Source: Squalus acanthias
Lineage: Eukaryota
NCBI GenBank assembly: GCA_030390025.1
Contig: CM059432.1
Span: 76,262,001-76,326,000 of the forward strand
DNA: 64,000 bases
Direction: 5' to 3'
Shown here: piece by piece, positions 6,019 through 58,240 of the stretch
Numbering within the stretch: the first letter of the stretch is position 1
How the letters are laid out: every line of letters begins with the position of its first letter
The notes under the pieces: generated by a model
The model's database searches: none
The model's input: the letters and a program-made list of their open reading frames with translations, nothing else
Told to the model about the DNA's origin: nothing
Program-made: the position numbers and the translations under genes

Positions 6019-9000
6019 GGGGGTGATTTTTGTTTTCAGCCTATATGGGGTGGGCAGTGGGTGGGGCCTCTGCCCTGCTTTCCCGCTGACATCAGAGGGA
6101 CGCCTGATCGATTTTCCTGGTTGGGCCTCATTGACATTGAATGGGTGAGCGGCCAGCCCTACTCGCACTTCTTATAGGTAGCTCGTTTATACAGCAGGGT
6201 TCATGGGCATTTTCCCATGCTTTTCTCTTTCTACTTAGCTCTCTCCCTCACACACTCACTTAGCATGACAACCTAGGGTTGCATTGCACCGCCACTCATC
6301 TGCTACTGCTTTCCCTTGCTGAACTTGTCCCTCTGCCGTGCTTCTCGGTCCTTCAGATTACTCAGGTCAAGCCGCCACCCAGACTGAGGAAGAGAACCCT
6401 TCCAAAGATGCACCATCACTTGCTCTTACCCTTCCAAGCAGCAGCACAGAAATCGACATAAATAGTGAATGAGAGGAGCCTGTGCAGGGTGATTGACTGA
6501 GCACAAGTGAGCAGGGGCAGGTGCCAGTACAACGAGCAGCCAGGAAATGGCTCACTAGAGGGCCAGCTACATCCTAGCTTTGCTGAAGAGGACAGAGATG
6601 TGGGCTTTAGGCGCCCAGCCTTTAAAGGACAAGTGCTTTCTGTGCACCAACAATTGCTCAAATCGTTGGTCTTCATGTCAGGGAGCTGCCAACTTCTGTG
6701 GGGTGCTCTTGCATGGCATCGACAGTGCAGTCAATCATGGAACATGTGGTCACCTCACCAGATGCTGTAACTGGGCCCTCTTTGTAGGAGTCTGTGGCAT
6801 CAGTAGTAGCATCTCTCAGGGATGCTCATACCAGAACAATGTAGGCTCTGGGTTCCATCCTCTCCTCTGCCTTGGAAAGGCTGGGAGATGATATGGATTG
6901 GGGTCATGGATGTCTTACAGGCTCATCTTCTGCAGATCAGTGGAAGTGGTGAGCTGCTGCCCAGTAGCAGGGGCAGTCATGCAATGAGAATGGAACATGA
7001 GGCCATATCTCAGGATGACAGCAAGTCTGCGCCCTTGCCATTCCCGCAACCAATGCCTGCCCTGGTGCTAGAAAGCCAGCTGGGCCAGACTGTCCTAGCG
7101 GACGCTGAGTTATTGCGGTCTTCACCTGGGCCCCCTCAGGCCCAAGCTCCTTGAGATCACTGACCACAAGCATCTCAAGAGCCCTTGACTGAACCAAAGT
7201 TGCCTTCCATCTCTCATGCTGAAATCACTGGGGGACCACGTCATATGAGCACTAGAATAGGTAAGAGAGCTCTCAGGACAGGCACTAGGGCCTCATGCCA
7301 GGGTGGTAATTAGTGTGTGACCATTGTGTAACAGAGTAAAATGATAACCCTTTTTGAAATCTTTGCAGAGAGTGTTCCTGTACTAGCTGGTGACCCTGCT
7401 ATGTCAGGTGACATGAATATAAATGTTGGTCTTTGGGCAGATGCAGTTTATTGGAGGGTGGAAAGACTGGGACAGATGTTGGACATGACTGTTAATACAA
7501 GGGAGCAGGCAATACTCAGTTGCCGCCCTCTTCAATGAGCTGCTGCCAAAGAGGTCTGGGTGCAGGAAGGTGTTGGAGCCCTTCCACCTCCTCACCGCCC
7601 TCTATGTTTTTGCCCTCGTCATGCTGAAAGTATTGGTCAATTGAGGCTCCATGTGTTGTCCTCATTGCAAAGCAAAGTTATGCAGCATGCAGTAAACCAC
7701 AATCATATGGGATACTTTTTGTGGGCTGTACTGCAAGAAGCCACCAGACCTATCAGGCAGCGGAATTGTTGCTTGAGGAATCTAAGGGCTAGAAATTGAC
7801 CTTCTTAGTGCCTCCCGTTATCGCCTCTGGGGGGCGATAATGGGAGGCGCTAAGCACTTATCGACCGGGTGCGGCGAGAAGATCGACTCTTGCTATATTC
7901 GGCAGGAGGTTTGTGGTGGTGGTATGGCATTGCGCCCCGATCTCCTCCGCCCGGAGATCGTGACGTCAACGCCAAGCGCATCGCCCCGGTAGTGCCCCGG
8001 ACCCGAACTTCGGTTCCGCCCCCTGCAGCATCGCCGGGCACACTGGCAGCTGCAGGAGACGTTCATCGGGAGGCCAGGTGCTTCGGGGCGATACTTAAAG
8101 GTGAGGTGGCCGAGGTAAGTGGAAAAAATTGTGACATGCTCTTTATCTTTTTTTTCATTTCTCTTCGCCAGCGATCAATCAGCCCGGCACTCTGCTGCAG
8201 TGCATCAGGCTGATCGGGCCGGATCACGGCTGCTGTCAGGGACCAGGTAAGTTTTCCCCTTGCAGAGCCTGCAACGATGGCCCTTCCCTTTAAGGGAGGG
8301 AAGGAGCCTTCCAACGCGGCAGTGATGCACGGCCCATTGTGCAGCGCTGCACACCTACCACACTGCCTGCTGCCTGTTGCGCTCCAGGGAGGAAGTGGAG
8401 CGCTTGATTTAGTGCTCCACTTCCTTCCCGGAGCGCAAAACTGAATTTTTTAAAAGTTGAAAACATTATCGCCGAGCGCTAATTTTTTCAACATTTAAAA
8501 GTTAGCGCCCCAACGGGACGATACTGAATTTCTCCCCCTAAAGATCTGTTCGATGAAGGCACTAGTTGATCACACACCAGTTGCCCATGAATGGAATATA
8601 TGTCCTTACAGTTCATGAAGACAGTGAGGTGATGTAAAAGAACCCATAGGGCAACATGGGTGCAGTCAATGGCATCTTGGATTAAAGAAAGACTGCAATC
8701 TACACAAGTATCAGAGCCCTATCCTGCTGCTTCCGGTTGTCCATGGGGAAAATGATGGAACTATTTGCTCTAATAAACATGGCATCAGGCGTCATAGCCA
8801 GAGGCAAAGAAGTTGAAGGCTACAGTGACCTTGACTGTAACAAGCAATGTTGTGCTAGCGGTGGGAGTTAGGTACAAGTCTTGTTGCAGGAGTTGACACA
8901 ACTCTGTGTCAGTCTCCCTAGAGAAGTGCAGTCTCCTTGTGCACGACTCCTCAGAGAACTGCAGTTACGTTGTCCTATGCCTATAAACTCTGTTGGGAGG

Positions 9001-15300: not shown

Positions 15301-15940
15301 TTCTTGTAGATCCCTTGTTATGAATGCTTCATGGATTCAGATAAAGTGCCTTTAATTTTACCTTTTTACCATTATTCCCTGACTTTAACCTTATTCGCTG
15401 ATGCACTATTACCATTAAACTCTCTGGGGTAAAAATTCAGTTGGTTGCGCCTCCCGTTAGCGCCTTAAGAGGGCGCTAATGGGGCGCAAAGCCGCTAACG
15501 CCCGGGCGCAGCGATGTTTGCGCCGCTCGGGAACTTAACTAGACATTGTGCGGCGGCGCTAAACTTTACCGCTGCGACCACCTGCGCGCGCAGATTGTGA
15601 CGTCATTCCATGGTGCAACGCCCTTGTGGCGCCCCGGAGCAGAAATTGAGTGGCGCCCCCTGCCTTACTGCCTGGCGCATCCAACGACCGGAAGACTGGA
15701 ACGCTATCAATCGCTGTGGGGCTGGGGGGGGGGGGCGCTATTTAAAGGGGGCCTCTTCCTGTCTTTTTCTGTGGTTGACATTTTTGCACCACTCGTTCTG
15801 AGAGAGAGAGAGAGATTCGGAGAGAGAGAAAGAGAGACTTCTGCATTGAGTCAACGCTTTGTGAGGTAGTTTTGCCTACTGATCCTAACTTCGCTGCTAC
15901 TTTGGTTGCTGTCCTTCATTACTTTGCTTGCAAAGAGACT

Positions 15941-17101
15941 ATGGGGGCTGCACTGATTGGGGGCGTCGTCCTGCTCCAGCTGAATCGGAGGACACAGAGA
16001 CGCAGAGAGAGACTGGCAATGATGGCCAGACGGAGGAGGGCCAACAGGCGTATGTACAGGAGAGCTTACCCTCCCAGGGTATATTGTGAACAGCTCTCCT
16101 ACCTTCATATGTCTGAGGAGCTGTGTTTGCGAAGGCTGCGATTCAGCAAGGAGGTGGTCACTGAGCTCTGCCACCTGCTGCAGCCAGATCTGCAGCCTCA
16201 ACTGAGGTCCAGGACGTCTCTGTCGGTGGCAGTGAAGGTCACAGTGGCTCTCAACTTCTATGCTACTGGCTCATTTCAAGCTGCTGCTGGGGACCTCGCA
16301 AATATCTCCCAGTTCGCGGTGCATTTCTGCATCCAGCAGGTCACAAATGCCCTCTTTAAAAGGAGACGAGAGTTCATCTCTTTCCCCATGACCCCAGACA
16401 AGCAGCGTGACCGCGTTCTGGGCTTTGCGAGGATAGCGGGCTTCCCCATGGTGCAGGGCGCCATTGACTGCACGCATGTGGCTTTGCGTGCTCCACCTGA
16501 GAATGCCGAGGAATTCCGGAACAGAAAGGGGTTCCATTCCTTGAATGTTCAGTTGGTCTGTGACCACAGACAGCTGATACTCGCTGTCAATGCCCACTAT
16601 CCTGGCAGCTGCCACGATGCTTTTATCCTGCGCCAGACTACTGTGGCAGACCTTTTCGAGGCACCGCATCAGCCAGTTGGTTGGCTTCTCGGGGACAAGG
16701 GGTATCCATTGAGCACCTGGCTGATGACACCGCTCCGTACGCCCAACACCCCTGCTGAGCTGCGGTACAATGAGAGCCATCAAGCTACCAGGAACATCAT
16801 TGAGCGCACAATCGGCGTGCTGAAGCAATGGTTCCGCTGTCTCGACCATTCTGGAGGAGCCCTGCAGTACTCGCCTGAACGAGTATCCAACTTCGTAGTT
16901 GTGTGCTGCATGTTGCATAACATGGCAATCGTCAGGACCCAGCCAATGCCACCAGGCCTTGGAGCACCACCAGAGGAGGAGGAGGAAGAGGAGGAAGAGG
17001 ACGAGGAGGATGATCATCAGCAGCACCAAGGCGGGAGGGCGGCCCACAATGGTGAAACTGCAAGGGCCGTCCGTCAACGGCTGATAGCAAGCCGCTTCTA
17101 G
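15941..17101 (+). CDS. Harbinger DDE transposase (HARBI1-like family), 386 aa from the first ATG
   Basis: Uninterrupted ORF with GAIDCTH, NRKGFHSLNVQLVCD, PGSCHDAFIL, LLGDKGY, RNIIERTIGVLK and CCMLHN motifs, and an acidic C-terminal tract. Confidence 0.93.
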   Translation: MGAALIGGVVLLQLNRRTQRRRERLAMMARRRRANRRMYRRAYPPRVYCEQLSYLHMSEELCLRRLRFSKEVVTELCHLLQPDLQPQLRSRTSLSVAVKVTVALNFYATGSFQAAAGDLANISQFAVHFCIQQVTNALFKRRREFISFPMTPDKQRDRVLGFARIAGFPMVQGAIDCTHVALRAPPENAEEFRNRKGFHSLNVQLVCDHRQLILAVNAHYPGSCHDAFILRQTTVADLFEAPHQPVGWLLGDKGYPLSTWLMTPLRTPNTPAELRYNESHQATRNIIERTIGVLKQWFRCLDHSGGALQYSPERVSNFVVVCCMLHNMAIVRTQPMPPGLGAPPEEEEEEEEEDEEDDHQQHQGGRAAHNGETARAVRQRLIASRF

Positions 17102-17413
17102 GGCCCCTGCTGTGGAAATGGCTTCTGCCATTGCTAACAACATCAATGAACCCAGCACGCAACCCCTAAGCCGGCCAAGGCACCAATAATTCCAAACACC
17201 AACCATGTATATTTTGAATACAGAAACTTATTTATTTTACAAACTCTGTGTGTGTCAATTCCTCATGACAAACTCATAGAAATAAACACAAAAAAACAGT
17301 CAATAACATAACTGGTTCTCACAACCTGGAGATAATGTCCAAAACACTAAACAAAAGTTGGACCATGAACCTCGGCCTTTAATAAAAAAATGACCAGCAT
17401 TTTGTCACACCTC

Positions 17414-19233
17414 CTACTTTTTTCCCTTCGAGGGTGATCTCCTTCCCTTGCGCACTTCCCCCCTTCTAACCCTACTGCTCCTCCGTAATGGGACCTCAGT
17501 GGCTGCAGCAAGGCTGGTGGAAGGCTGCTGATCGTCAGACCCTGACACTGCAGATGCCCCTGAAGGACGGCCTCGACCAGTTCTGGGCCTGGAGGGCCCG
17601 GCTGCAGACTGCACCAACTCTGCATGGGCAGCAGCAGTCTGTCCTACAGGCGGTGGCAAGTGCAGTGGAGAAGTGACAGTGTTGGCAGCAGGAATGCTGT
17701 CATCGTGAGAGAGGACAGCAACTCCCTGCTCGCCCGACACACTGGCACTCCCACGGGGCAACACTTCAGCATCCGGAGCAATCTGCTGGAGAACAGATTG
17801 CTGGCCTGCTGCGGCGCGGTGAGAGCCCCGGGGACATGTGAACGAACCATCGAGGTTGGCAGCAGTCTGTGCTCGCGTGGCCTCAATCTGAGTCTGCATG
17901 AGAGCAGTCAGAGATGGGATCACGGCAGCCAGTGACTGAATTGCAGCACTAAGCGTTAGTGTGGCATCCGCCTGTGCTACAGCGAAGTGCTCCACACTCC
18001 TTGCCAGTGACTCAATGCATTCGGGCACCCTTCCCACTGCACCCATGAGCTCAGTGTGCATGCCCACCGCCTGGGTGTTCATTTCTGCGATCAGCCGCTC
18101 CTCCTCTGCGTCCATTGCAGTAGGAGTCTCTGGCATACTCTCCCTCTGGGGAGAAGGCCCCCGTTCTTCCCTACCCCCATGGCGTTGCTGCAGCCCGCTG
18201 GGTCCTGGAGCTTCACCCTCATCAGACCCTTCCCCCCTGCTCCCCTCCAGGGAAGGCGTGTTCCCAGTGTGGGCATGGGCTTCCTCGGGAGAGGGTGGCA
18301 CTGATGCTCTGGCTTCCTCTTCCTCCTCGCCTGCAGCTTCACTCCCAGTGGCAGCTTTAGGGCCCGTCTCCTCAGCTGGTGAATCACCATCTGAAAGCAG
18401 GGAGGTACAAGAGTGGCTTTAGCGTGAGGACAGGGTGGCAGTAAGGGAGGAATAAGTGCAGCGAGTTAGCAAGTTGGATTGAAAGTGTCAAAGGCTGGTG
18501 TTGTGAGGGACAAGTGGAAGGACAGAGGACAAAAAGGTGATGACCTTACCATTGCTGTCCAGAACGGGGTCGGCGTCTCCAGTGGCGACGGGACCGATCA
18601 CCCGGCTTGCCACAATCCTGTGGACGCGCTCCTCAAGATCGCTGAGGGGTTGCAGCTGAGGCCGCCCTCCACCTGTCCGTTGCTGCTGTCTCCGATTATG
18701 CGCCAGCTTGGCCTGCAAGAAAAAGGACAGCATCTGAGTAAATATACAGCCATGGTCTTGCCTGATGTGCCTCCCATAGGTGAATAGCCCTTACTGTATG
18801 CAGCCATGGTCTTGCCTGATGTGCCTCCCATAGGTGAATAGCCCTTACTGTATGCAAAGTGTGGAATGCGTGTGTGTGTTTCATGAAAGGGCCATAGGTG
18901 TTGGATGAGTGTTGTGCATTGGGGTTTTAAGACCCTCTGGCCATAGAGTGAGGTTGAGATGGAGGGATGGAGAGGTATTGAGAAAAAGCCACTCACCCTG
19001 ACGACCCGAGTGAGGTCGTTGAACTTTTTGCGGCATTGAACATGGGTCCTGGGCACCATGCTCCTGGAGGAGACGCTCTGAGCCACCTCCCTCCACACTC
19101 TTCTGTACTCGCGTGGCAAAGGCCTCCTGCCACTCTCAGGGAAGAGTATACATCTTCTGCGCTCCACCGCGCCAACCAGAGCATCCAAGGCCCGCTCGGT
19201 GAAGCGATGAGCTCGTTCTCTCACCCTCTCCAT
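17414..19233 (-). CDS. Harbinger Myb/SANT-like DNA-binding protein, predicted 3 exons (19233-18997, 18712-18550, 18390-17414), 458 aa
   Basis: Exon 1 has RFTERALDALV...W.EVA......RT..QCRKKFNDL. Splice sites are canonical (AGG|GTGAGT, TTCTTGCAG|, ATG|GTAAGG, CTTTCAG|). Phases 0 and 1 join into one stop-free 1377-nt frame ending in a basic NLS-like tail. Confidence 0.85.
18747..18856. repeat. Tandem repeat, 2 x 54 bp, in intron 1 of the Myb/SANT gene
   Basis: Unit CAGCCATGGTCTTGCCTGATGTGCCTCCCATAGGTGAATAGCCCTTACTGTATG starts at 18747 and at 18801. Confidence 0.95.
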
Positions 19234-20132
19234 CCTTGGCAGCAAAATGGATTCACAGGTCTCTCCAGGCCGAGATTCAAGGCTGCAATGAGCAGGGTGT
19301 GGCTGGGGAGCAAGTTGGCCCCTCCCGCTTTAAGAACTGGCCGGCGCCAGTGTGTCTGTGTTCCCTCGCTAACTGGCAGCACCTGCGCTGTGCTCGCGCG
19401 CTGAGTTAGCGCCTCACTGCTCGGCCTTTGCACCTTAAGACAGGTGTGCAGCGCCTGATTTAGCGCTCCACTCACCTCCCGGGCGGTAAAAGTGAAGTTT
19501 CCAGTCAGTGGCGATAATTAGCGCCAGGCGCTAATATTTGCGTCCAGACGATATTTGCGCCCCAAACGGGGCGCGACCTAATTTTTCCCCCTCTGTCCCT
19601 TCCTGTCACACTCTGCTTATCTTTACCGAAATCGCTACACTGCTCCATTGCCTTGACTTTTCTTTTTAGATTTCTAAAGTTACCCTCATCTGACCCTTCC
19701 ACCCTTTTTAGTTAAAAGCCCTAATCTACAGCCCTAGTTATTCGATTCGCTAGGGCACTGATCCCAGGCCAGTTTAAGTGGAGCCCGTCCCAATGGAACA
19801 GCTCTTTCCCCAGTACTGATGCAAACCCCCTTCCTCCCACACCACTCTTTGAGCCACACATTTAACTCTCTGATCTGCTTGTCCCAATGTCAATTTGTGC
19901 GTGGCTCAGGTGGTAATCCAGATTTTATTACCTTTGAGGTTCTGTGTTTTGATTTGGACCATAGCTCCTTAAACTCCCTCAGCAGAGCCTCATTCCTAGT
20001 TCTATCTATGTCATTGGTTCCTCCTCCAAAATCTTCAAATAGAGCATGATGTTGAGAAGGAATCCGTAAAGAATCTATTCATGGGGAAACAGGCAGTTAG
20101 CAGGCAGAGTGCAAAGAAGCTGACAGTAAAAT

Positions 20133-23601: not shown

Positions 23602-26600
23602 ACTGTTTCTGGCAAAACAAGCGAAGCAATAAAACAGCTAAACAGCAACGAAATGTGAAATAGGTGGAAAAAGAAGGTACTTGCAGCAAGTCCAACTGAA
23701 TCAAGCCACGTTAAGAACAAAGGCACTACACGGGGAAGGAAGCTCCCTCGGGGCATCCATTTAAAACAGCTGCTGAACCTCTCGAGCACCTATCAGCATC
23801 ATTATGGGAACTAGCCCTAATTCACATATTTTTCAGCGCTTTTGTGGAACCGTGTGTGCAGCTTCTTAGAGCTAGAACTACTTCTGGATAGTATTATGAC
23901 AATCTCTGAACAGGCCTCAGCACTTCATTATGTAGCAGTGCCATGGCTGCTGATGATCGAAATCATGTGCAAATGGGGAGCAACAGCAGTCGATAGTGAA
24001 AAAGAAATTCATGGAAGACTTTTTGAACATCCTCAAAAAGAGTTACAAAAAATAACTAATTAAGAATTCCACCTTGAGAGCTAAAAATCTGCCTCTGTGA
24101 TGCATGATCAACACAATTAATTATTGTTATAAACGCAGAACGCCACTTACCTCCTGACCAGCAAAATAACTGATCTTAATCATCAGTGAGTGAGGCTTCT
24201 TTCTACATTTAGCTGCATGCATTGCAATCAATCAGTTTTCCAATGTTGCAACAAAAGGTTCAGGATGTTAAATGTCCTTATTTCATATCTTTTGATCATT
24301 TCCTTGTACAGCCTGTGGGTGAGATTTCCACCTGCCTCTGTTACTTTAGGGGCATAACCTGAATTCTGTGAGTCTGACTAAAACATTTCAACATCCAGCA
24401 GATGTTCACTCATATTTAAGTAAGTGGAGTCACAAAGGAACGGTCTGTGTCCTTGGGGTTAACAATAACCAGAATGGTAGTTTATACATCTATACAGATA
24501 CCACCGTCTACACTATACTTCCCAGAAAGATTCAGCAGAAGCTGGCTTGTTAGCATGTAAAGGTTCAATAAAATATTCTACTGAGTTCACAGCAGAAAAT
24601 TAGAACTGTAATGAAGCCTTCATAATGATTACATTGTACGTATCTGAACAGGCATTAGGACCTTCTGAAGCTGAAATTAAAATAATTAAGTCTTCAAGCT
24701 TAATGGCCAATCCTTTAAGGGCATCTCTCAGTAAAGCAGGCTATAGAAAATATAAAGGAATAACCCGACTAGTAAATCCCAGTGCCATCTCTTGCACCTT
24801 TGCTGAATTAGTTAACAAATTAATGCCTTACACACAATATTACAATAATCTCTTCAGTTTTGCAGAAATCTTCCACGACATTTCAATCTATTGTGAGTGG
24901 GATTTTCAATGCTAAACAAAATCTGGACAGAAACTCACCTTCATATTTGAAGAAAAACAGTCTATTCATTGTGTTAGGATGATTGCCTTTCATTATAAGT
25001 AGGTATAGGAAGATACAAAGGAATCATATCTATATTTAGAAATGCTGTATTACACTTGGACCGTCCATGGTAGTCAGGGTGGTCACTTCAGTGACAACAA
25101 AAATGAGGTCACTTCTGACAGACCTTGGTAGAACATTACAACAACAACAACCTTTGCCTAACTGTCTGCACTTTGTAAAACCTAAAGTATTTGCACATTT
25201 TTGCATATAACATCTGCCCAACTAAATCATGAATTACACATTTAACTCTATTTAAACAGCTACTGTCCGAGTACCTCAAGGAGCACATATTTGTTCAATT
25301 TATTAGCTAAATTGGCTTGAAAATAGATCTCTGATTGCTTTAAATAATTTGTTTTACATTTCTGTATTGTAAAATTTAAATTGAATAGGTTTTACTTTTT
25401 CGTTGCCAGCGGGACCCTGCTGTAAACTGACCTTCACTGGCCACGGTGGCTTTCTCACAACACTGTTCTGATGCTTTTACACATTGTGCCGAATTATTTT
25501 AATAAAGTAAACTTTTTGGGGTGCATTTGAAGATCCACCAGACTGAATGTGAAAAGTAAAACAGCAGTAGCCACTGCCATGTCCTTCAATGTAACATTAT
25601 ATCAGCATCACATTTATGACAACGTCTCGCCTTAATTGAAGGCAGGCAAAGTGCTGTCGACAAAATTGCATTGAGCTTTGTTTAGTTTGCACAGCAGGTG
25701 CATGATTTTCATGATGTACTGAATTTTAACAAGATTGCCATGCTACTGCCTCGGGGCCTGCAACTTCAAGCATTCTAACTGAGGTTTGAGCATCCTCGAA
25801 GGAATAACTGCAACCTTCCGCTAGGTTGCTGGAGGTGTTAATGAATTCTACATCAGGCTTCAAACACTTTCTTTTAGTGTGAGGAACTGCTCTCTCCAAA
25901 ATAATGCAGAGGCCAGCCTATTCACTTCCACAGTGTTTCTTCAAAACCGAATCATAATGTGGTTCACTGGGGGTTTGATGTTAGTCACGGTAAATTAATG
26001 GACAGGCACGTCAGGGTTCGGCCACTCCCACTAAACACACTGGGAAAAGGATCAGCTGTTTTTCATTCTGTCACTGTAGCAATTTGAGTCAATTGATTAA
26101 AAGGAGTGTGAAGGAGTTAGTGCAAGTCCAAAGCAATAGGCCTAGAAATTAGATATGGCCCGAAAACGGGCGGTGTCACGGGCCAGCGCTATTTGCCTGC
26201 GCCCATTGAAAGTGGTCCAGGCAGCATGCAAAATTAGTGCTGCCTACTCATTATAATGATTGGAGCACTGATCTCAGCACTAAACACGCTGCTGATTGGC
26301 TTAGCGCTGAATGGGGGGGGGGGGGGCCAATACGGGTGCAATCTAATGGCCAATAATGTTTGGCCTAGGCTCTCTGCACTACTTAACGAGGAGGTGCTTT
26401 GTTGCAGAAGCACCTCATTGTCATTGTAGAGCAAGCCATGGCTCAGCAACCAAGTGAGCGAGCAAGAAGGGTCTCAGACACTGCACTGAAGGCCTTGGTC
26501 CTGGTCGTGCAATGAAGGCGGGGTGTCCTGTTCCTGTAGGGTGGCAAGAAGCCATCCAAGGCCATTTGCAGAAGGCTGTGGGAGGAGATAGCTGACTCCG

Positions 26601-27800
26601 TCACGGCCACCAGTGTGGTCCCAAGGACCTGAATCCAGTGCTGGAAAAAATGTAATGAACTCGCACGGCAGATCAACGTGAGTAAAGGCTTCAGCAAATG
26701 CCATACCCCAGCACCTGCACCACAAGCCTCACACACTGCTCAATGCACCACACCCCCATCACTCACCTACCAACAATCTCTACCTATCACCACTCAGACC
26801 TCACAATCATGGCTTCACTTCACCCTCACAACCTTACCACTGCTGCAACACTCACATCCACATCCTGCTCCTAGATTCTATGTTTCTATGTTTCTATCTC
26901 ACACCTTGAACACACTGGCAACTATTCAACTATGGCAGGCACATCACCTGAACACATTGCGCTACACTCACTGACACACTTCCCTTTCTCTTGCAGGCAA
27001 AGGTGGCACATGACAGGAGGGAGAAATGGCAGACAGGAGGCAGCCAAGCCTCAATACAGAACCTCACCGACCTGGAGGAATCCGTGCTTGAAATTATTGG
27101 AGGGGCAGTGGCCGAGTCCGTGGCCAGCGGAAAGTTGAAGCCATTGCTGATGATGATGGTATAGTCATACTTAATCCTTCTTCTCACATCCCACTTACCC
27201 CTCATCTCACAATCTCTTCTCACATACAAGCTGCTGATGGTGCATTCATGGATATCTTGCTTCCCTCCCTCCCCTCACCACAACCCGACTCTTGTGCCTT
27301 TCTGCTTTCAGATAACCAAGAACTGCCAGCAGGCCAGCCTGTCCCTCATGGTGACCAAACTGAAGGAGATGACGAACAAGAAGAAGACACACCGTCACTG
27401 CATTTGACACTCGCAGACACAAGCTCAGAAAATGACATTGAGCGGAATTTAGATGGTATTACAGAAGCGGGATCTGCACATAGCGAGTCACTGGGCACGA
27501 GTGGGCTGCAGCCAGGCCAGGGGCAAAGGGTAGCTCAGGTGCCAGCACCCTGGGGGGGCGGGTTCGTGCTCAGATTCTGCTGCACAGGACTCAGATGACC
27601 GCGATGAGGTGGCCTTCAGAAGAAGGGTGATGGCCATGCACACGGAACTGCTAGGTGCAATGGCAAGCCTGCCAGAGAGCCTCTTGTCAGTGTCAAAGAG
27701 CAATGAGGAGTCCAGCTCCAACATTGGACTGTGCTTTTCGCAGAGCTTGGAGGCCACGATTTCCAGGATGGAAATGATGGACAACTCCAAGAGAGACCTT

Positions 27801-28564
27801 GGGGCAGAAATTCGGCTGTTGTCGGGTGAGTATGCACTGTGTACTCACCCGTGGATGGAACGAAAGTGCCGGTTTCTTGCATGCACTGCGCATGCGCGGG
27901 AAACCGGCACTTCCATTCCCCTGAGGAAAGGGGTTCAGAGGTCGAATGCGCACGCCGGAGGGCCAGCGCGTTCGCCTCGCACTTCGGATTTTTTTTACAG
28001 GTTCCTCCGTGAAGATAAGCACGGAGAAGATACACTTTTAAAAAGGATGCGCAAGGCCTTCTTTTAACAAGGTAAGTGTTGATTTTATTAAAATTTAAAC
28101 ATTTTTTTCACAGATTTATCTTTATTAATTACTTTAAAGAAAAATAAGTTTAGTTTTAGCCCCATTAAAAAATGTAATTCATTTTTTCAAAAATTTAAAT
28201 TTTTGTTTAAAATAGTTAATTAATGTAATTTTTAGTTATTTTAAAAATGTGATGTTTTAAAAAAAATGTATTTGTAGTTTTAGGGATGTTTTGGGGCCGA
28301 TCTGTATTCATAGATTTGACAGGTCCTGTCAAATCTATGAATGAAAGATGGTCTGCTGCCATTGGCTCTCCATGGCCCACGTGATCCCAGGGGACGCATC
28401 GCACTAACTACGCCCCTGGGATACACAAGCACAGCGCGCCGGCAGTTGGAGGGGGCCCAGGAGCCGAAGTCCCCGTGGGCCCAGAGGTCAACGGCAGGCA
28501 CGGAAGGTAGGTGCGCGCGCGATCCTTGCACCCGCGGGAAGCCAGGGAGCCGAATTTCTGGCCC
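27801..28564. mobile_element. Harbinger-type MITE inserted in the B2 Myb gene
   Basis: 16-bp TIRs GGGGCAGAAATTCGGC / GCCGAATTTCTGGCCC (15/16); CTT TSD at 27798-27800 and 28565-28567. Confidence 0.92.
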
Positions 28565-31500
28565 CTTGTCTCTTCCACTGCAGCACAGGAGGATGCGACC
28601 CAACGTCTGAGTGCTGCAGTGCAGACTCCTCTCCTGCAGGCTCAGCTTGCTGCCACGCAAGGTCAGACTGCTGCCATCGTTGCTGGGTTTACCAGTGTTG
28701 AAAGAGGCTTGTAGGTTGTCAGAGCAGGCCAGCAATGTAGGAATGCTGAGGCGCTGCCCGGGGGGAGTGGCAGTGGGTCTGTGAAGCAAGAACCTGCTGT
28801 TCTCTCTCAGGATGACAGCATTCCTACTCCCACCACTGCCACTCCACCATTACCCTTGCCACTGCCTATCAGCCAGCCAGTCCAGACTGCTGCCGCCCAT
28901 GCCAAGGTGGTGCAGTCTACAGCTGGGCCTTCTAGGCCCACAGCTGGTCGAGGTCATTGTGAAAGGCAACCTGTAGTCTACCCCACTGAGAGTCAGCAGC
29001 CTTCCCCCAGCTGCTGCAGCCACTGGGGGAGCACTGTGTAGGAGCACTAGAGTAGGAAAAGGCACATTGAGCGACAGACACTAAGGGAATTCACGAGGAT
29101 TATTAGTTGATATTGTAATTTTGATTATATTGGGATAAATTTATGATTTTTGTTTGGAATGTTTGTTTTGTGGTGGCTCTCATTTCAGCTTTGTGCCCAG
29201 GAGGACGCTGTGATGTTCTGTGACAGAGGGATGGTATGATTGGGAAGTGGTGAGCAACGGGGATCTGGGGTTTCATTCACTGGAATCGGAGTCTGATGAG
29301 GTGTTAATGGACAGCCCGTTCAGAACGGGGATTTGCTGCCTGCCTCCTCCCTCCCTCCCTCCTCCTCCTCATCTCCCTCCTCCTCATCCTGAGGTAGTCC
29401 TGCAATCCCTGGTGGCAAGGGCTGCACCTTCATGATGGCCAAGTTGTGAAGCATGCAGCAGACCACCACGAAATGGGACACCCACTCCAGCGAGTATTGA
29501 GGTCTCCTCCTGAGTGGTCAAGGCAGTGTAACCGCTGCCGAGCTCCCCGATAGTCTGCTCGTTGATGTTCCTGGTGGCAGCATGGCTGTCATTATATGAG
29601 TGCTGGGCACGAGTGGTGGGGTTGCCAAGGGGAGTCATCAGCCAGGTGCAGAGCGGATAGCCCTTGTCTCTGAGCAGCCACCCTCAGGTTGAGGTGGTGG
29701 CTGGAAGATTGCTGGCACACCATACTGTGTAGGATGATGGCATCATGACTGCTGCCAGGATAGCAGGCATTCACCTTCACGATGCACTGGGCGTGGGCAC
29801 AACAACTGCACATTAAGTGAGTGGTAGCCTTGCGGTTGCAGTACGTCTCAGGATTGGTATATAATGCCCGCAAAGCCACGTGGGGTGTGCACTCAATGGT
29901 GCCTTGCGCCATGCAGAAGCCCGCTATCCTGGCAAAGCCACATGTGCTCTCGTCCTGTTTATCTCTGTTCAGAGAGAAGCCAATGTAGTCTCTTCTCCTA
30001 GAGAGCCTCAGTGACCTCCCGGATGCAGTATGAATGGCGAACTGGGAGATGTTAGCTATGTCTCCTGCTGCAGACTGGAAGGATCCACTGGCAAAGAAAT
30101 TGAGGGCCACGGTGACCTTGAGGGCCACTGGGAGTGCCGTGGTCACCCTGCTCTGAGGCTGCAGGTCTGGTTGCAGGAGGTGGCAGAGGATAACCAGGGA
30201 AAGAGTAGGGCCCATTAGGGACCAAAGTGGCAATCTGTGTGTAGAGCCGGAAGATGTAGGTGAGGTTTTAAATGAATATTTTGCATCTGTGTTCACTATG
30301 GAGAAGGACGATGTAGGCATAGAAATCAGGCAGGGGAATTGTGATACACTTGAACAAATTAGCATTGAGAGGGAGGAGGTACTAGCGGTTTTAGCGGGCT
30401 TAAAAGTGGATAAATCCCCAGGCCCAGATGAGATGTATCCCAGGCTGCTGTGTGAGGCAAGGGAGGAGATTACAGGGGCTCTGACACAAATTTTCAGAAC
30501 CTCTCTGGCCACAGGGGAGGTGCCAGAGGAGTGGAGAACAGCTAAAGTAGTACCATTATTCAAGAAGGGTAGTAGGGATAAACCAGGGAATTACAGGCCA
30601 GTGAGCCTAACATCAGTGGTAGGGAAATTATTGGAAAAAATTCTGAGGGACAGAATTAGTCTCCACTTGGAGAGGCAAGGATTAATCAAGGATAGTCAGC
30701 ATGGCTTTGTCAGGGGGAGATCATGTCTAACCAATTTGATAGAATTTTTCGAGGGGGTGACTAGGTGTGTGGACGAGGGTAGTGCAGTTGATGTAGTCTA
30801 CATGGACTTCAGTAAGGCTTTTGACAATGTCCCGCATGGGAGACTGGTCAAGAAGGTAAGAGCCCATGGGATCCAGGGCAATTTGGCACATTGGATTCAA
30901 AACTGGCTTAGTGGCAGGAGGCAGTGGGTGATGGTCGAAGGATGTTTTTGTGACTGGAAGCCTGTGTCCAGTGGGGTACCACAGGGATCGGTGCTGGGTC
31001 CCTTGCTGTTTGTAGTGTACATTAATGATTTAGATATGAATGTAGGAGGTATGATCAGTAAGTTCACAGATGACACGAAAATTGGTGGAGTGGTAAATAG
31101 CGAGGAGGGAAGCCTCAGGCTACAGGACGATATAGACGGGTTGGTCAGATGGGCAGAACAGTGGCAAATGGAATTTAACCCTGCAAAGTGTGAGGTGATG
31201 CATTTTGGGAGGACTAACACGGCAAGGGAATACACAATGAATGATAGGACCCTAGGAAGGACAGAGGATCAGAGGGACCTTGGTGTGCATGTACATAGAT
31301 CCCTGAAGGCAGCAGGACAGGTAGATAAGGTGGTTAAGAAGGCATATGGGATACTTGCCTTCATTAGCCGAGGCATAGAATATAAGAGCAGGGAGGTTAT
31401 GATGGAGCTGTACAAAACGCTAGTTAGGCCACAGCTGGAATACTGTGTGCAGTTCTGGTCGTCACACTATAGGAAGGATGTGATTGCATTGGAGAGGGTG

Positions 31501-33647: not shown

Positions 33648-33946
33648 GCCCCTGCTAAAAAAATGGCTTCTGCCATTGAGAACAACATGAATGAAACCAA
33701 CCCACAACCCCTAAGCCAGCTAAGGCAGCAATGATTCCAAAGACCAAACATGTACATTTTGAATACAAAAACTTATTTATTTCACAAACTCTGTGTGTGT
33801 CATTTCCTCATGACAAACTAATAGAAAGAAACACAAAAACACAGACATTAACATAACTGGTTCTCACAACCTGGAGATAATGTTCAAAAGTTTGACCACG
33901 AACCTCAGCCTTTAATAAAAAAATGACCAACATTTTGTCACACCTC

Positions 33947-35689: not shown

Positions 35690-36110
35690 AGTCCTTGGCT
35701 GGAAGATTTAGGCACAGGTCTCTCCAGGCCGAGATTCAAGGCTCCAATGAGCAGGGTGTGGCTGGAGTGCAAGATCGACCCTCCCCTTTTAGAACTGCCC
35801 GGCGCCAGTGTGTCTGTGTTCCATCGCTAACTGACAGCACCTGCGCTGCGCCCGTGCTCTGAGTTAGCGCCTCGCTCCTCGGCCTTTGCGCATTAAGACA
35901 GGTGTGTAGCGCCTGATTTAGCGCTCCAATCACCTCCAGGAGCGATAAAAGTCAAGTTTGCAGTCGGAGGCGATAATTAGCGCCCCAAATGGGGCGATAC
36001 TGAATTTCTCCCCCTATGACTCTATGACCTCCTTGGTGAAGCGGAGTCTCCTAATACACTGATCCTTGCTTTAGTGGAGGCAAGAAAAGTGCTTTAGGAA
36101 GACCCTAGGT

Positions 36111-43666: not shown

Positions 43667-44491
43667 ATTGATCCTAACTGTAGTTATCTTATAGCCTGTT
43701 GAAAGAGTATCATTATTTAAATGCTCTCTCCAAATGTTGTATTAGTCTTCTTTACAGAACAAACCTGTAAGTATCATGTGAATATATGTACTACCACAGA
43801 CCCTGGCCTACAGCTAAGTTGTAACACAGTGGCCACATTGTTATTGCTTGCCTATAGATAGAAATAAGTAACCCATGTAGCGTAGACACCCTAGTCACAA
43901 ACACAGCTTTCTATAAGCTCCATGTATGATGATCCAGTTCTGAGAATGAATTACTCTGTAAAGATCAATCTTAAACTCAATTAACTTTGAAATGTTTACA
44001 GAATGTAATAATGTTAAATATACATGAATCCTATGATTATAATCGTAACGCTGAAATCTTTCAGAAAAATCTAGCAGAGAGCTGGTTGTGAGTTCATTTT
44101 CTAGTGTCAACAGTTATTCAAGTTCACCTTCCCTCACTGAGACATTTTTATCAGGGCTTGACCTGTGTGTGAGCTAAATATTGCTTCTAAAGGGGATTAA
44201 AAGCTAGCACAGCCAATCCAATTCACAAAAACACATCTATAGCTTATACCAGCCAGTCGTGGGGTCATTTGGTATCCTTCCCACATTGCTGAAGAAGGAA
44301 GCATGGCAGCAGTGCTGGGGAATCTTAAATGGAAAGAGGAAAGACTAAAATATATTTTTAAGGTTTTGTGGAGAAACTTTAAATGCGGAAAATAAATTGT
44401 TAAGTTTTTCTGTGTAACTAAATAGTGATTTTTGGTGTAATTTAAACTTTTCTGTACTTTTTCAGTTATTATGTTCCTTATCGGACATAAC

Positions 44492-45957
44492 AGCCCGGAA
44501 CTTGCGGTCCTGATGACGGCGAACTGGCAGCGTTCGCTGTAATTTCGCCTTTGAAACTGACCACAACTTCAGGATTTTGCGAATGCGCAGTCTAACGTGG
44601 AAATCCTGAAGTTGCAGTCTGTCATTTACTGCCCCGACACAGGCTGCACTGTGGATACGCCCCCCTCCCACCCAGGGCCGGAAATCAGTGAAATCACTGA
44701 TCTGACGAAAACTTCTCCTTTTTCGAACAAGAAACCCCATAAAAAGTTAGACCCATTCAAATGAGGTGTAACTGGGTTTTTTATGGTGATCTGTGTAATA
44801 GCTGCTAATAAACAACCAATCTAACCCTGAAAAACTAATTATTATATTGGTGGAATGTCAAATTTCTCCATTAAGTTAAAAATTATTGGCCCAGAAATTG
44901 ATCTCGCTCTGTTCCCGCGGGGGTAAGCCTTCCCCGCGATGTCTCACCTCGCTTATGCTTTTTCTGATCCAGCTCGCACGAACTTGATGTTCCAGACATC
45001 AGCTGTGCTGGGCTTGCGTATCCCAGCGGCGTAGTGAATTCGTGCGAGCTGTGGGATCACGTGACTCAGTTAGAGCCAATGGCAGCACACCATCTTCCAT
45101 TCATAAGTCTCACAGCATGGCTGTGAGACTTATGAATCTTACACCCCCCCAAAATAACAGCTAAACCTCAATTAAATTTTTTTAAAAAACCATCACATTA
45201 ATAAAATAAGTATAGTTAAATAAATTAACCATTTTAAATAAAAAATAAAATTTTTGAAAAAATGTAAAATCACTTAAAAAGTTATAAAAATAAACTTACC
45301 TGTCTTTAAAGTCTCTAAAAAAGATATACCAGTTAAAAAAAATTCAAAAAAATACTTAATTCACTACTTACCTTCTTAAAAGCGGGTCTTACTCTTCCTT
45401 TTTACATTTCCAAAATCTTCCCTACTTACCTGCGCGTCCAAAGCATGAAGTGCACAGCGTGCGCGCAGCCTGTAGCGCGCGCACGCGATGCACCCAGGCC
45501 CCGCCCCCTTTTCAGAAGAGCAATTGCCGGTTTTCAGCGCATGCGCAGGGCATGCAGAAAACCGGCAATTGGAGTGGGAATACGCGAGAGTATGCAGTGC
45601 GTACTCTCGCGTCCCGGGATCAATTTTCGGCCCATTAGATTTTAAAATACTTTTTTTCATTAATTTTAAAAGATTGTTCATGATATTTCAGCTTCTACCT
45701 TAATCCAATGTGCATGTCCCAATCTTTATTTTGGTCTCTGTAATTTTTTTAGAAAGTGTTTGATTATTAGTGCTTAGACAGCTTGTTGATATCACAGCAG
45801 CTCGCACTATGGGATTCCTACTATAACATGTTGATTTCAACTGCACATCGGAAAAGCCGAACTATTCGCCACAGAGACCGTGAGATCTTTGTGGGAAACT
45901 TATTTCGGGGCCAGCGGCCAGCGCCTTTGCTTCGCCGCTGACTGCAAATTACGGGCC
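44492..45957. mobile_element. Outer Harbinger-type MITE, hosting a second MITE
   Basis: TIRs AGCCCGGAACTTGCGGTC / GACTGCAAATTACGGGCC (14/18). The AT-rich core is interrupted at 44888. TSD is not conserved. Confidence 0.75.
44888..45633. mobile_element. Inner Harbinger-type MITE, related to 27801-28564 in opposite orientation
   Basis: TIRs GGCCCAGAAATTGATC / GATCAATTTTCGGCCC; ATT TSD at 44885-44887 and 45634-45636. Confidence 0.9.
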
Positions 45958-49248: not shown

Positions 49249-50002
49249 GGGGTGGAAATTGCGGTTGGAGGCTTGCTGCAGGCGAACGCCTCCGAACTGC
49301 AAGAAAACTCCGCACCTATCTGATTGCTCCAGACCTTCGAAGATTCCCGCTCCTGGGCCTGCAGGCATATGCCAGCGTCAAGGCCCACGCATCCCAGGTG
49401 TGCATGCGGTTTGCAAGCGGCCCTGGGATCATGTGGGCCGGCCCAACCAAAGACAAAGGGGGATTCTCATTATGCTTATAAGGATTCCATTTACATACGG
49501 ATCCCCATAAGCATATTAGGAATCCCCTGAAAAATAGATTTTCACAACACTGAAATAAAAATAAATCATCACAGGTTCAAAATTAATTAAAATACCATTT
49601 AATTAAACATTTAAAATAAAAATGTAACTTTTTGAAAAATAAATTTAAACATTTTTAAATGGGACAAAAATAACCTAAACTAAGTTTAAATGTAAGGGAA
49701 TATTTAAGTGATTTTAAAAATGCTATTTTAACATTGATTTATCCATTACACTGGTAAAAGAAGGCTTTATGCCTGCTTTTACCAGGTGTAAGGGTTTGGT
49801 GGGTATTCGCTGGGCAGTAGTGGGGCAAATAGACCAACTCTCCGCCAGCGAATGGCCATTACCAGCAGATGCAAATGATCTGTCAAGCAGAAACTTTGCA
49901 GATCACAAGTTCCGGTTTTTCGCGCATGTGCATCACATGCAGAAACCCAGAACTTGCGGGGCACACAGCGTACGCCATCATAGGCCCCGTAAAATCCGGG
50001 CC
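49249..50002. mobile_element. Harbinger-type MITE inserted in CR1 ORF2
   Basis: Interrupts CR1 WQMEY|..GK. Imperfect TIRs GGGGTGGAAATTGCGG / CCGTAAAATCCGGGCC. Same internal layout as 44888-45633. TSD is ambiguous. Confidence 0.8.
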
Positions 50003-56500: not shown

Positions 56501-57376
56501 ATAATGGCTAGCACCGTCTCCTCCATGGGGGTAAGAGAATGCAGGCACATCTGTCCCCCTCCAGTTAGCTCCTGCTGCTTACAGTTGTGCGCCACCTTGT
56601 CCTGCAAGAGAGAGGGAAGTCTGTCAGTGAGTGTGGTGCAATATTTTTGGGTGATGTGGCTGTCATGGTTGAATAGCCGGCAGTGTATGCAAGCTGCAAG
56701 ATATGTGGGTGTGAGGCTTGCAGCAGTGCTAAGTGTGTGAGGGTGCGGTGAAGAATATGAATGCTTGGTATGAGTCCTGATTGATAGAGATTGCTGGTAG
56801 GTGAATGATGGGGGTGTGGTGAGGCTACTGGTGCAGTTGGTGGAATATGATATTTGAAGATGCATTCACTGACCTTGACTACTCGTGTGAGGTCATTAAA
56901 CTTCTTGCGGCACTGCATCCAGGTTCTCAGGGCTAGACTCCTGGCATTGACCTCCGCGGCTATCTGCTCCCACGGCCTTTTCAACATGTGTCAGGACGTC
57001 TCTCAATCCTTTCCACCTCCTCCACCAAGGCCTCCAGTGCAGTGCCGGAAACCCTGGGTGCCCTCTCTCTCGCATGTTCAACCATTCTTCTGCCTTTCCC
57101 AGGTCAGATTCAGTGCACACAGGACTCTCAGCACCTGCTCCACACTACCCTTTAAGAGGTGCAGGCAAGCTTTAAGTAGTGCAAGCAAGTTTTCGGCCTC
57201 CTGCTGAGTTGTGCAGCCCATCAACAGTGTGTTTAGCGCTGGCTGCATGCTGAAATCATGTAAATGAGCAGGCAGCACAAAGATGGTGTGCTGCCTGCAT
57301 TACATCCAACGGGCGTAGGTTAATCCCGCATCGCGATCCCAGCGCTCGTTTTCGGGAGCTATCCAATTTAGCCCCC
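53560..57376 (+). mobile_element. Decayed full-length Harbinger (family B, copy B3): transposase pseudogene on +, 3-exon Myb/SANT pseudogene on -
   Basis: Termini GGCCGAGAAATT / AATTTAGCCCCC with TGT TSD (53557-53559, 57377-57379). Transposase pieces at 54055-54456 and 54470-54712, with the catalytic middle deleted. Myb WEQIAAEVNA..RTWMQCRKKFNDL at 56870-56987. Confidence 0.9.
55621..55712 (-). mobile_element. L2 3'-tail fragment inserted in the B3 Myb gene
   Basis: CAACAACAAC...AACTTGTATTTATATAGTGCCTTTAA...CCCAAGGTGCTTCACA matches the L2 end. Confidence 0.85.
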
Positions 57377-58235: not shown

Positions 58236-58240
58236 ACAAA

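What the first reader, a model, noticed from the sequence alone, without database searches (positions are those of the whole stretch)
27801..28564. MITEs built like portable promoter/first-exon cassettes, with hairpins that stay perfect while their sequence changes
Seen: this MITE and the inverted one at 44888-45633 are divergent but keep the same ordered modules. (1) A subterminal hairpin: CGGGTGAGTA/TACTCACCCG at 27823-27851 vs ACGCGAGAGTA/TACTCTCGCGT at 45582-45612. (2) A hairpin enclosing GCGCATGCGC. (3) AG|GTAAGT donors pointing away from module 2. (4) An AT-rich spacer. (5) A perfect 18-bp palindrome with different cores: ATTCATAGATTTGACAGG-t-CCTGTCAAATCTATGAAT at 28306-28342 vs ATTCATAAGTCTCACAGC-atg-GCTGTGAGACTTATGAAT at 45099-45137. 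(6) CCAAT and CACGTG exactly 12 nt apart (28361-28365/28378-28383; 45058-45063/45076-45080). The MITE at 49249-50002 has decayed versions of modules 2, 4, 5 and 6. Known: NRF1, NF-Y (CCAAT), USF/MYC E-box and GC-box motifs (GC box at 45499-45507) plus a downstream U1 site typify vertebrate CpG-island promoters. Inference: these non-coding elements are under selection for structure and transcription-factor binding, and may seed promoters or first exons, or open chromatin to aid mobilisation.
Basis: partly seen in the sequence, partly recalled or inferred. Interest (0 to 1): 0.72.

Follow-up and report, generated by a model that had tools for sequence, protein, structure and literature searches.

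The report
Harbinger MITE keeping hairpins, promoter motifs
This is an old, very abundant family of gene-less 'cut-and-paste' jumping elements whose diverged lineages kept the same hairpins and promoter-type binding motifs, most likely because these help the element itself spread; no sign was found that the host uses them as promoters.

Summary
The three ~750-bp elements are diverged subfamilies of one high-copy Tourist-like PIF/Harbinger MITE. They have 3-bp target duplications and share their terminal repeat with nearby transposase + Myb/SANT elements, so the shared module order is common descent.

The mirrored stem changes are real: 9 of 41 named stem pairs changed on both sides and none on one side. 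Modules are 77% identical between M1 and M2 against 43% for GC-rich spacers, although the AT-rich 'spacer' is as conserved (68-76%). The E-box-12 bp-CCAAT module matches the published USF/NF-Y geometry.

The perfection belongs to the amplifying lineages. Against family-majority letters, M1 has broken stems and has lost two of three family splice donors. Autonomous Harbinger ends here also carry hairpins and promoter-like motifs, and a neighbouring 753-bp MITE is built from such ends. No direct parent was found.

Best reading: inherited Harbinger end regions, filtered for the element's own mobility, with template switching supplying the mirrored changes. Promoter or exon seeding in the host is untested and unsupported.

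The parts
27801..28564 (+). M1: 764-bp non-autonomous PIF/Harbinger element (MITE); 14-bp imperfect TIRs; 3-bp TSD CTT at 27798-27800 and 28565-28567 inside a palindromic target context
27823..27851 (.). Stem H1: outer 10 bp perfect; extends to 14 bp around a 1-nt loop with two CpG-type mismatches in M1; 2 compensated pairs vs M2
   Evidence: family majority letter at 27833 repairs one mismatch
27864..27912 (.). Stem H2: 13-bp arms enclosing GCGCATGCGC (27888-27897; NRF1-type, motif name recalled); 2 compensated pairs vs M2; also present in M3 and M4
   Evidence: highest summed contig depth on the stretch in X1, X11 and X12, second in X14
27943..27974 (.).
27989..28020 (+). Acceptor-like site ending at 28000 (M1 only) and family donor a (cut 28014|28015), whose GT is lost in M1
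   Evidence: 28015 reads G in about 100% of depth in all four runs
28041..28077 (+). Stem H4 (28041-28065) followed by intact donor b AAG|GTAAGT (cut 28071|28072)
   Evidence: M3 counterpart 49751-49785 has perfect 10-bp arms but no donor
28078..28270 (.). AT-rich core, conserved between subfamilies; holds an acceptor-like site ending at 28113 and family donor c (cut 28143|28144), lost in M1
28306..28342 (.). Stem H5: perfect 18-bp palindrome; 5 of 18 arm positions differ from M2, all mirrored
28345..28383 (-). YY1-like core (28345-28351, name recalled), CCAAT (28361-28365) and CACGTG (28378-28383): read inward from the right end, 5'-E-box-12 bp-CCAAT-3'
   Evidence: geometry as in PMC4889920 and PMC12065363
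28384..28422 (.).
28504..28512 (+). Donor-like site pointing outward, about 55 nt before the right end; donor-like sites at the same place in M2 and (weaker) M3
   Evidence: untested
44888..45633 (-). M2: 746-bp member of a second subfamily; TSD ATT; three intact AGGTAAGT (45424-45431, 45366-45373, 45294-45301)
49249..50002 (-). M3: 754-bp, more distant member inside a CR1-type LINE; TSD imperfect; keeps H2, H4, H6, the AT core and a hairpin at the H5 position; no donors; E-box CpG-decayed, CCAAT lost
44334..44681 (-). M4: truncated fourth relative (left part only) with a 14-bp H2 stem at 44564-44614
   Evidence: nhmmer E=4e-4
26139..30188 (.). Broken autonomous-type Harbinger that hosts M1 (Myb-side TIR at 26139; transposase remnant 29358-30188 on the minus strand, cut by a LINE); M1 interrupts its Myb/SANT-side gene in sense orientation
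   Evidence: 70% DNA identity to the transposase at 16166-17006 and to the Myb-side gene of 53560-57376
7786..8538 (+). Comparison element N7786: 753-bp MITE (TSD TAA) made of the transposase-side and Myb-side ends of the autonomous family at 15426-19591 and 31975-36014; two AGGTAAGT donors
15426..19591 (+). Comparison element H1: full-length Harbinger, same TIR type, TSD TCT, DDE_Tnp_4 transposase and convergent Myb_DNA-bind_5 gene
53560..57376 (+). Comparison element H3: decayed full-length Harbinger (TSD TGT); transposase-side end has NRF1-like, YY1-like and TTTAAAG motifs and a donor-like site at +287, with an acceptor-like CAG just before the ATG

Best explanation
M1, M2, M3 and M4 are subfamilies of one old, high-copy, gene-less PIF/Harbinger (Tourist-like) element, moved in trans by the transposase plus Myb/SANT protein of autonomous Harbingers with the same terminal repeat (membership shown; mobilisation inferred from family knowledge). 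It arose once from the two ends of an autonomous ancestor. Those ends carry the promoters, 5'-UTR splice signals and subterminal inverted repeats of the two convergent genes (inferred by analogy). The lineage then diverged by 35-46% as a MITE. Copies that kept paired inverted sites or hairpins at fixed places, the AT core and host-factor sites (NRF1-type, USF/NF-Y-type) out-amplified the others, probably through better transpososome assembly or chromatin access in the germ line (conservation shown; cause inferred). Mirrored arm changes were most simply supplied in one step by template switching, for example during gap repair after excision (inferred). Once a copy has landed, nothing maintains it and it decays (shown for M1). 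Any promoter or exon given to the host is a by-product.
For: Membership: 7 strong TIR pairs with identical 3-bp TSDs in the window include M1, M2 and full-length elements coding DDE_Tnp_4 and Myb_DNA-bind_5.
Single origin: colinear alignment across the whole length including the centre; lengths 746-764.
Abundance: 13,413 and 20,187 contig pieces laid from two DNA-type runs of two organisms.
Conservation: modules 77% vs GC-rich spacers 43%. Named stems: 9 of 41 pairs compensated, 0 one-sided. Neutral arm homogenisation alone would let arms drift as fast as spacers (inference), yet only 22% of pairs changed.
Decay after insertion: 5 of 7 shown majority letters in stems repair M1, 3 of them at CpG; two donors lost almost only in this copy.
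Ends of relatives: median folding z is -5.3 for 9 MITE ends, -2.85 for 8 autonomous-type ends and 0.05 for 32 controls. N7786 is built from both ends of H1/H2 (z 16-38) and folds better than they do.
Precedent: internal sequence tunes mobility of the Harbinger MITE mPing, with nucleosome occupancy proposed (PMC9921582). Template switching perfects stems (PMC8794818; PMC8604942) and does so during break repair (10.1101/2023.08.09.552703).
Against: No autonomous parent found: profiles of the Myb-side and transposase-side ends miss M1-M3 at E<=5, and the best pairwise hints are weak (1, 3 and 21 of 300 shuffles, picked after many comparisons). Neither GCGCATGCGC nor E-box-12-CCAAT occurs in any autonomous end in the window. 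Only three full copies could be aligned, and the module limits came partly from them. M3 lacks donors and CCAAT, so these are not needed by every lineage (or M3 is old). Two of the 7 stem variants break pairing (their partners may be among 140 hidden rows). Nothing here measures transposition, binding or chromatin. In mPing no shared promoting sequence was found between elements.
Confidence: 0.55

Rival explanations
1. Relic only. Selection acted on the promoters of autonomous parents. The MITE subfamilies were re-derived from, or repeatedly recombined with, such parents, and the hairpins are perfected by neutral template switching. Nothing in the MITE matters beyond the TIRs.
For: N7786 shows that 750-bp MITEs here are made of parental ends. 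Autonomous ends also fold better than controls (7 of 8 at z<=-2.4). Weak same-orientation likeness of M1/M2 right ends to the H3 Myb-side end and of M1's donor region to the H3 transposase-side end. Template switching mimics selection (abstract of PMC8604942).
Against: M1, M2 and M3 align colinearly through the centre at near-equal length, which independent deletions would not give. M3 has a hairpin of unrelated sequence at the H5 position. The H2 loop keeps one orientation in 4 of 4 copies, with no spacer inversion. MITE ends fold better than autonomous ends (p=0.004, ends not independent).
Confidence: 0.22
2. RNA-level function. The element is transcribed from its own promoter motifs; the stems act in the RNA (structured non-coding RNA or small-RNA precursor) and the tandem donors recruit U1 or splice a short intron between donor a and the acceptor at 28113.
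For: The family majority has three tandem donors and an acceptor in sense order. 8 of 9 AGGTAAGT in the window lie in TIR-bounded non-coding elements (expected 1.86 in all). The strand carrying the donors folds slightly better at the M1 and M2 left ends.
Against: No Rfam match in the window. Both strands fold about equally in z for most ends. The lineage differences in the named stems are strict Watson-Crick swaps, not G-U wobbles. A cut-and-paste element has no RNA step (family knowledge). M3 has no donors.
Confidence: 0.1
3. Host-selected portable promoter or first exon: inserted copies are kept by the host because they start transcripts or add first exons.
For: Canonical promoter grammar: E-box-12 bp-CCAAT, an NRF1-type site and CpG o/e 0.74-1.15 in M1/M2 ends against 0.42 for the window. 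An outward donor-like site lies near the right end. Retroviral LTR12 and MLT1K carry the same composite and are bound in cells.
Against: M1 has lost two of three donors and several stem pairs since insertion. CpG sites in the stems are decayed in about 4-6% of depth in X1. M1 and M3 lie inside dead transposons. Host selection on single copies cannot by itself explain conservation between amplifying subfamilies (inference).
Confidence: 0.07

Closest known systems
mPing and other Tourist-like MITEs of the PIF/Harbinger superfamily (PMC2836001, passages read; PMC9921582, abstract, Background and Discussion read)
   Same: Non-coding, short TIRs, 3-bp TSD with an extended target preference, dependence on a transposase plus Myb-like protein, internal sequence that can promote or inhibit mobility.
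   Different: mPing is a 430-bp perfect deletion of a known parent. This family is about 750 bp, has no parent identified, has diverged 35-46% into subfamilies and keeps a string of six stems plus vertebrate promoter motifs.
Vertebrate Harbinger elements, including zebrafish Harbinger3N_DR (seen only as cited in PMC2836001, PMC9392472, PMC9179366; primary paper not held)
   Same: Two-gene autonomous partners with DDE and Myb/SANT domains; Myb-like protein binds terminal regions; short non-autonomous variants also known in sea kraits (PMC8437027, passages).
   Different: No passage read describes internal hairpins with compensated changes or promoter modules in these non-autonomous elements. 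The TIR here is about 14 bp against 25-50 bp stated as usual.
E-box/CCAAT (USF1/2 with NF-Y) composite in promoters and in LTR12 and MLT1K repeats (PMC4889920 and PMC12065363, passages read)
   Same: Same order and spacing: E-box 10-12 bp before CCAAT.
   Different: There it is in retroviral LTRs, which need a promoter, and binding was measured. Here it is in a gene-less DNA transposon and binding is untested. PMC12065363 reports NF-Y-bound repeats in human and mouse as retroviral only.
Template-switch (quasi-palindrome) correction of inverted repeats (PMC8794818, PMC8604942, 10.1101/2023.08.09.552703; abstracts read)
   Same: Gives perfect arms and multi-base mirrored changes without selection; occurs in double-strand-break repair.
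   Different: It does not by itself fix hairpin position or slow the arms relative to spacers; no spacer inversion was seen in 4 copies.

Membership tests
PIF/Harbinger non-autonomous element (Tourist-like MITE) | 3-bp target-site duplication | tested here: met
   M1 CTT, M2 ATT; M3 imperfect (ATA vs AAT, or ATA with a one-base shift): 2 of 3 exact
PIF/Harbinger non-autonomous element (Tourist-like MITE) | TIRs shared with elements coding a DDE transposase and a Myb/SANT protein | tested here: met
   Same TIR type at 15426-19591 and 53560-57376; Pfam DDE_Tnp_4 (E 6e-39) and Myb_DNA-bind_5 (E 4e-10)
PIF/Harbinger non-autonomous element (Tourist-like MITE) | Short and without coding capacity | tested here: met
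   746-764 bp; the one frame running from the host into M1 has no Pfam match; somewhat longer than the 100-600 bp given for MITEs
PIF/Harbinger non-autonomous element (Tourist-like MITE) | High copy number | tested here: met
   13,413 and 20,187 contig pieces in X1 and X11; no true copy number, as no genome is held
PIF/Harbinger non-autonomous element (Tourist-like MITE) | Extended palindromic target preference | tested here: met
   A-N-N-Y left of the TSD in 6 of 7 and R-N-N-T right of it in 5 of 7 TSD-bearing elements, M1 and M2 included
PIF/Harbinger non-autonomous element (Tourist-like MITE) | Deletion derivative of an identifiable autonomous element | tested here: inconclusive
   No parent among the autonomous-type ends in this window; weak hints only; genome not held
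PIF/Harbinger non-autonomous element (Tourist-like MITE) | Mobilised in trans by transposase plus Myb-like protein | not testable with these tools
   Needs an excision or transposition assay
Vertebrate CpG-island promoter / first-exon cassette | CpG-rich with NRF1, NF-Y, USF, GC-box motifs | tested here: met
   CpG o/e 0.74-1.15, GC 56-66% in M1/M2 end regions; motifs present; GC box in M2 only. Autonomous H1 ends are as CpG-rich (1.02-1.05)
Vertebrate CpG-island promoter / first-exon cassette | USF/NF-Y geometry (E-box 10-12 bp before CCAAT) | tested here: met
   12 bp in M1 and M2; a loose-end variant in X11 has a third 12-nt spacer; not met in M3
Vertebrate CpG-island promoter / first-exon cassette | Transcription start site, open and unmethylated chromatin | not testable with these tools
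   Only contigs were served; they show no starts or strand. CpG decay in copies points to germ-line methylation (inference)
Vertebrate CpG-island promoter / first-exon cassette | Donor spliced to a downstream exon | tested here: inconclusive
   None of the 15 shown joints (of 34) has depth in the two RNA-guess runs; these runs may be DNA
Curated structured RNA or miRNA family | Match to an Rfam covariance model | tested here: not met
   0 matches at gathering score in the 64-kb window

The most novel reading that the evidence does not exclude
A gene-less DNA transposon lineage has, for long enough to diverge 35-46%, been selected to keep a working CpG-island-type promoter grammar (NRF1 site, USF/NF-Y composite at exact spacing, U1-type donors) together with a cruciform-prone perfect palindrome beside an AT-rich core. 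It does so not to express anything but to hold its own chromatin open and win the transposase in the germ line. Its many copies would then scatter ready-made promoter modules through these genomes as a side effect.
Probability: 0.25. Interest if true: 0.72.

Novelty: new variant of a known kind. Interest (0 to 1): 0.42.

Why it matters
Why a few deletion derivatives become hugely successful MITEs is an open question; work on mPing points to internal sequence and chromatin but found no shared motif (PMC9921582). This family offers naturally evolved, position-fixed candidates (six stems, an AT core, a USF/NF-Y composite) that can be mutated singly, with compensatory rescue already supplied by the subfamilies. 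It is also a caution: mirrored stem changes in a DNA transposon need not mean RNA structure or host function. If the genome is a shark's (earlier notes only, not tested here), it adds to the open point in PMC9179366 on Harbinger presence in cartilaginous fish.

Tried and rejected
Whole genome: none held, so no genome-wide consensus, R-scape-type test or parent search.

Other sequence sources: the module-6 pattern found 0 matches in metagenome contigs. No RNA holder is on record among 20 listed runs.

Splicing: in two RNA-guess runs (X12, X14) none of the 15 shown joints has depth, 19 more are hidden, and several contigs run unspliced across donor b. One X14 contig ends exactly at 28071, the last base before donor b, but a contig end can also be a subfamily branch. 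No verdict either way.

Depth by bin is no copy number. Module bins exceed left GC-rich spacer bins about 10- to 150-fold in X1 and X11, but in X1 the right-hand spacer bins (0.64-0.86 million) are close to module 6 (1.2-1.3 million), and low complexity may inflate the AT bins. Used as a weak pointer only.

Parent search in the window: negative. Empty site: two paralogous host copies lack M1 but carry some 20-35 more bases at the site, so the pre-insertion sequence was not rebuilt exactly; two X11 contigs also skip the element.

Host gene nearby: 0 Pfam matches in 69 frames, 67 of them of 75 aa or more from the less repetitive parts; short exons would be missed.

Myb-like binding site: I recall a 9-bp site for the zebrafish Harbinger3 Myb-like protein that resembles the H1 arms. 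The primary paper is not held and a text search returned unrelated papers in the 20 listed of 67, so it is unverified and not used as evidence. The idea that GGTAA is a trihelix site and not a donor is recall only; PMC13538051 passages gave no motif.

ERSE (CCAAT-N9-CCACG, recalled) does not fit the spacing. Strand asymmetry of folding was small and mixed.

Literature: searches gave 0 papers; others listed none describing this family. The library lacks most subscription papers and Repbase/Dfam, where the family may already be named. PMC7786948 passages gave nothing on Harbinger. No supplements were opened.

Full report
Observation. I read the three regions and checked every coordinate by script; all nine sets are right. 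The two 18-bp palindromes are the longest of 50 perfect inverted repeats (arm >=9, loop <=45) in the window. M1 holds 6 such repeats (0 of 150 block shuffles reach that), M2 holds 4 (2 of 150) and M3 holds 6 (0 of 150). Whole elements fold far better than shuffles (z -12.2, -10.8, -9.4). CACGTG-N12-CCAAT occurs only in M1 and M2, as does GCGCATGCGC.

What the elements are. M1 (27801-28564, +), M2 (44888-45633, -) and M3 (49249-50002, -) align colinearly at 65% (M1/M2) and 54% (M1/M3) identity. A truncated fourth relative lies at 44334-44681. The shared module order is therefore common descent. A terminal-repeat profile built from window ends finds 7 strong pairs with identical 3-bp duplications (and one weaker pair), among them M1 (CTT), M2 (ATT) and full-length elements of 3.8-4.2 kb. 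Frames from 15426-19591 match DDE_Tnp_4 and Myb_DNA-bind_5, and a frame from 53560-57376 matches Myb_DNA-bind_5. This is the two-gene plan and 3-bp duplication of PIF/Harbinger (PMC9179366 Introduction; PMC2836001 passages). Flanks read A-N-N-Y on the left in 6 of 7 and R-N-N-T on the right in 5 of 7. M1 interrupts the Myb-side gene of a broken Harbinger and M3 sits in a CR1-type LINE. The family is abundant: 13,413 and 20,187 contig pieces were laid from X1 and X11, and 530 and 546 from two RNA-guess runs, covering three coded organisms. I did not determine the taxon; earlier unchecked notes call this genome shark-like.

Are the stems kept while the sequence changes? On the three-row alignment, 16 of 74 pairs show a two-sided change against 8.3 in shuffles (0 of 500) and 1-4 in slid controls. 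With three related rows, a structure taken from M1, and M3 poorly registered in H1 and H5, this is not a probability. Taking all six stems, perfection is partial: 50 pairs same, 9 compensated, 12 broken in one copy, 3 in both. At the H5 position M3 has a longer imperfect hairpin of unrelated sequence, so position is kept where sequence is not. H6 is the reverse: its outer 6 pairs never vary in 3 of 3 copies, as expected of paired protein sites.

Are the motifs better kept than spacers? Summing, module segments are identical at 208 of 270 positions (77%) and seven GC-rich or mixed spacers at 116 of 269 (43%). I left out of both sums the TIRs (64%, 79%), the 12-nt spacer (50%) and the two AT-rich segments (68%, 76%), which are about as conserved as the modules. 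Module limits were partly drawn from these copies, so the contrast is inflated. The 12-nt spacer changes in sequence but not length, and a loose-end consensus in X11 shows a third 12-nt spacer between ATTGG and the E-box. Read inward from the right end the order is E-box, 12 bp, CCAAT. That is the preferred USF1/2-NF-Y arrangement in promoters and in LTR12 and MLT1K repeats (PMC4889920 and PMC12065363, passages). The names NRF1 and YY1 for the other motifs are recalled. M3 has a CpG-decayed E-box and NRF1-type site, no CCAAT and no donors.

Where does the maintenance act? The laid contigs give majority letters (40 of 180 rows shown). Seven shown rows fall in stems: 5 turn an M1 mismatch into a Watson-Crick pair, 3 of them at CpG, and 2 break a pair. 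At 28015 and 28144 essentially all depth reads G in all four runs, restoring GT. The family thus has three tandem donors, as M2 does, and M1 has lost two of them; in X1 the depth lacking G is 68 and 38, about that of one or two single contigs. So the intact state belongs to the amplifying lineages and this copy is decaying. That speaks against host maintenance of M1.

Where do the modules come from? Autonomous ends here also fold better than controls: median z is -2.85 for 8 ends against 0.05 for 32 controls, while 9 MITE ends reach -5.3 (ends are related, so the p values 9e-5 and 0.004 are indicative). They carry promoter-type motifs and a TTAAAG-type box 200-320 nt inside, and H3 has a donor-like site at +287 with an acceptor-like site just before the transposase ATG. 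The 753-bp element at 7786-8538 is a natural control: its left part matches the transposase-side ends of H1/H2 (z 37-38), its right part the Myb-side ends (z 16-23), and it has two AGGTAAGT donors. For the M family itself no parent is in the window. The best hints are M2-right vs H3 Myb end (1 of 300 shuffles), M1-right vs the same (3 of 300) and M1's donor region vs the H3 transposase end (21 of 300), all picked after many comparisons; end profiles miss M1-M3. Origin from parental ends is therefore inferred, not shown.

How it most likely works. A MITE has no gene to express, yet this lineage kept stems, an AT core and factor sites through 35-46% divergence with one shared centre. The simplest filter is its own amplification. 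In mPing, internal regions promote or inhibit transposition and nucleosome occupancy is the proposed cause (PMC9921582); Myb-like proteins bind terminal regions. Mirrored changes need no two-step compensation: template switching homogenises arms in one event (abstracts) and perfects palindromes during break repair (abstract), the kind of repair by which cut-and-paste elements gain copies (established knowledge). Neutral homogenisation would not slow the arms or fix their positions, so I combine the two: mutation by template switch, filtering by mobility (0.55). Rivals are relic only (0.22), RNA-level function (0.10) and host-selected promoter (0.07).

Expression. Untested in effect. No listed run is on record as RNA. 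The two RNA-guess runs show no depth at any of the 15 shown joints (19 hidden), and contigs cannot show starts or strand. No Rfam match. No Pfam match in 69 frames scanned for a nearby host gene.

Novelty. The kind is known: Tourist-like MITEs, some predicted to fold (PMC5172404 passages). I found no description of a Harbinger MITE with position-fixed compensated stems and a USF/NF-Y composite in searches, but repeat databases and subscription papers are outside the library. Verdict: a new variant of a known kind, interest 0.42. The open, testable point is whether a gene-less transposon keeps promoter grammar for its own spread.

Noticed in passing
window 7786-8538: A second ~750-bp Harbinger MITE family, built from both ends of the H1/H2 autonomous family; its hairpin at 8390-8425 is perfect (12 bp) where H1's counterpart is not. 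Four of the five complete TSD- or TIR-defined derivatives of this TIR type are 746-764 bp, which may hint at a preferred length.
   Followed up: partly
window 37567-38458: 892-bp internal deletion derivative of the H1 family (TSD ATT), inserted directly against the terminal repeat of another Harbinger at 37563.
   Followed up: partly
window 39306-40214 and 38592-39192: Two non-coding elements with a related terminal repeat; the first has TSD TGA. Each has an AGGTAAGT on the minus strand about 270-295 nt inside the right end; in the first it lies in a hairpin (39891-39940) beside a GTAAGT-like copy on the other strand.
   Followed up: partly
window: 8 of 9 AGGTAAGT in 64 kb lie in TIR-bounded non-coding elements of three different families (expected 1.86 in all); the ninth, at 24145-24152, is unassigned.
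   Followed up: partly
window 15426-19591 and 31975-36014: Two 90%-identical near-intact Harbingers; the first has a 388-aa open transposase frame and a convergent Myb/SANT gene, and is a candidate recent source of transposase.
   Followed up: partly
window 27534-28067: The host element's reading frame runs on for about 88 codons into M1 and stops just before donor b; no Pfam match; probably chance.
   Followed up: yes
window 57268-57298, about 26220-26245 and about 2525-2550: A subterminal hairpin shared by three Myb-side ends with different loops; its left arm and loop in H3 match 16 of 17 bases next to the CCAAT of M1 and 16 of 16 in M2.
   Followed up: partly
window 58174-58236: Isolated fragment matching the Myb-side end profile (E 3e-9).
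   Followed up: no
window 11523-13924: Two LINE 3' portions in inverted orientation, 85-90% identical, under 1 kb apart.
   Followed up: no
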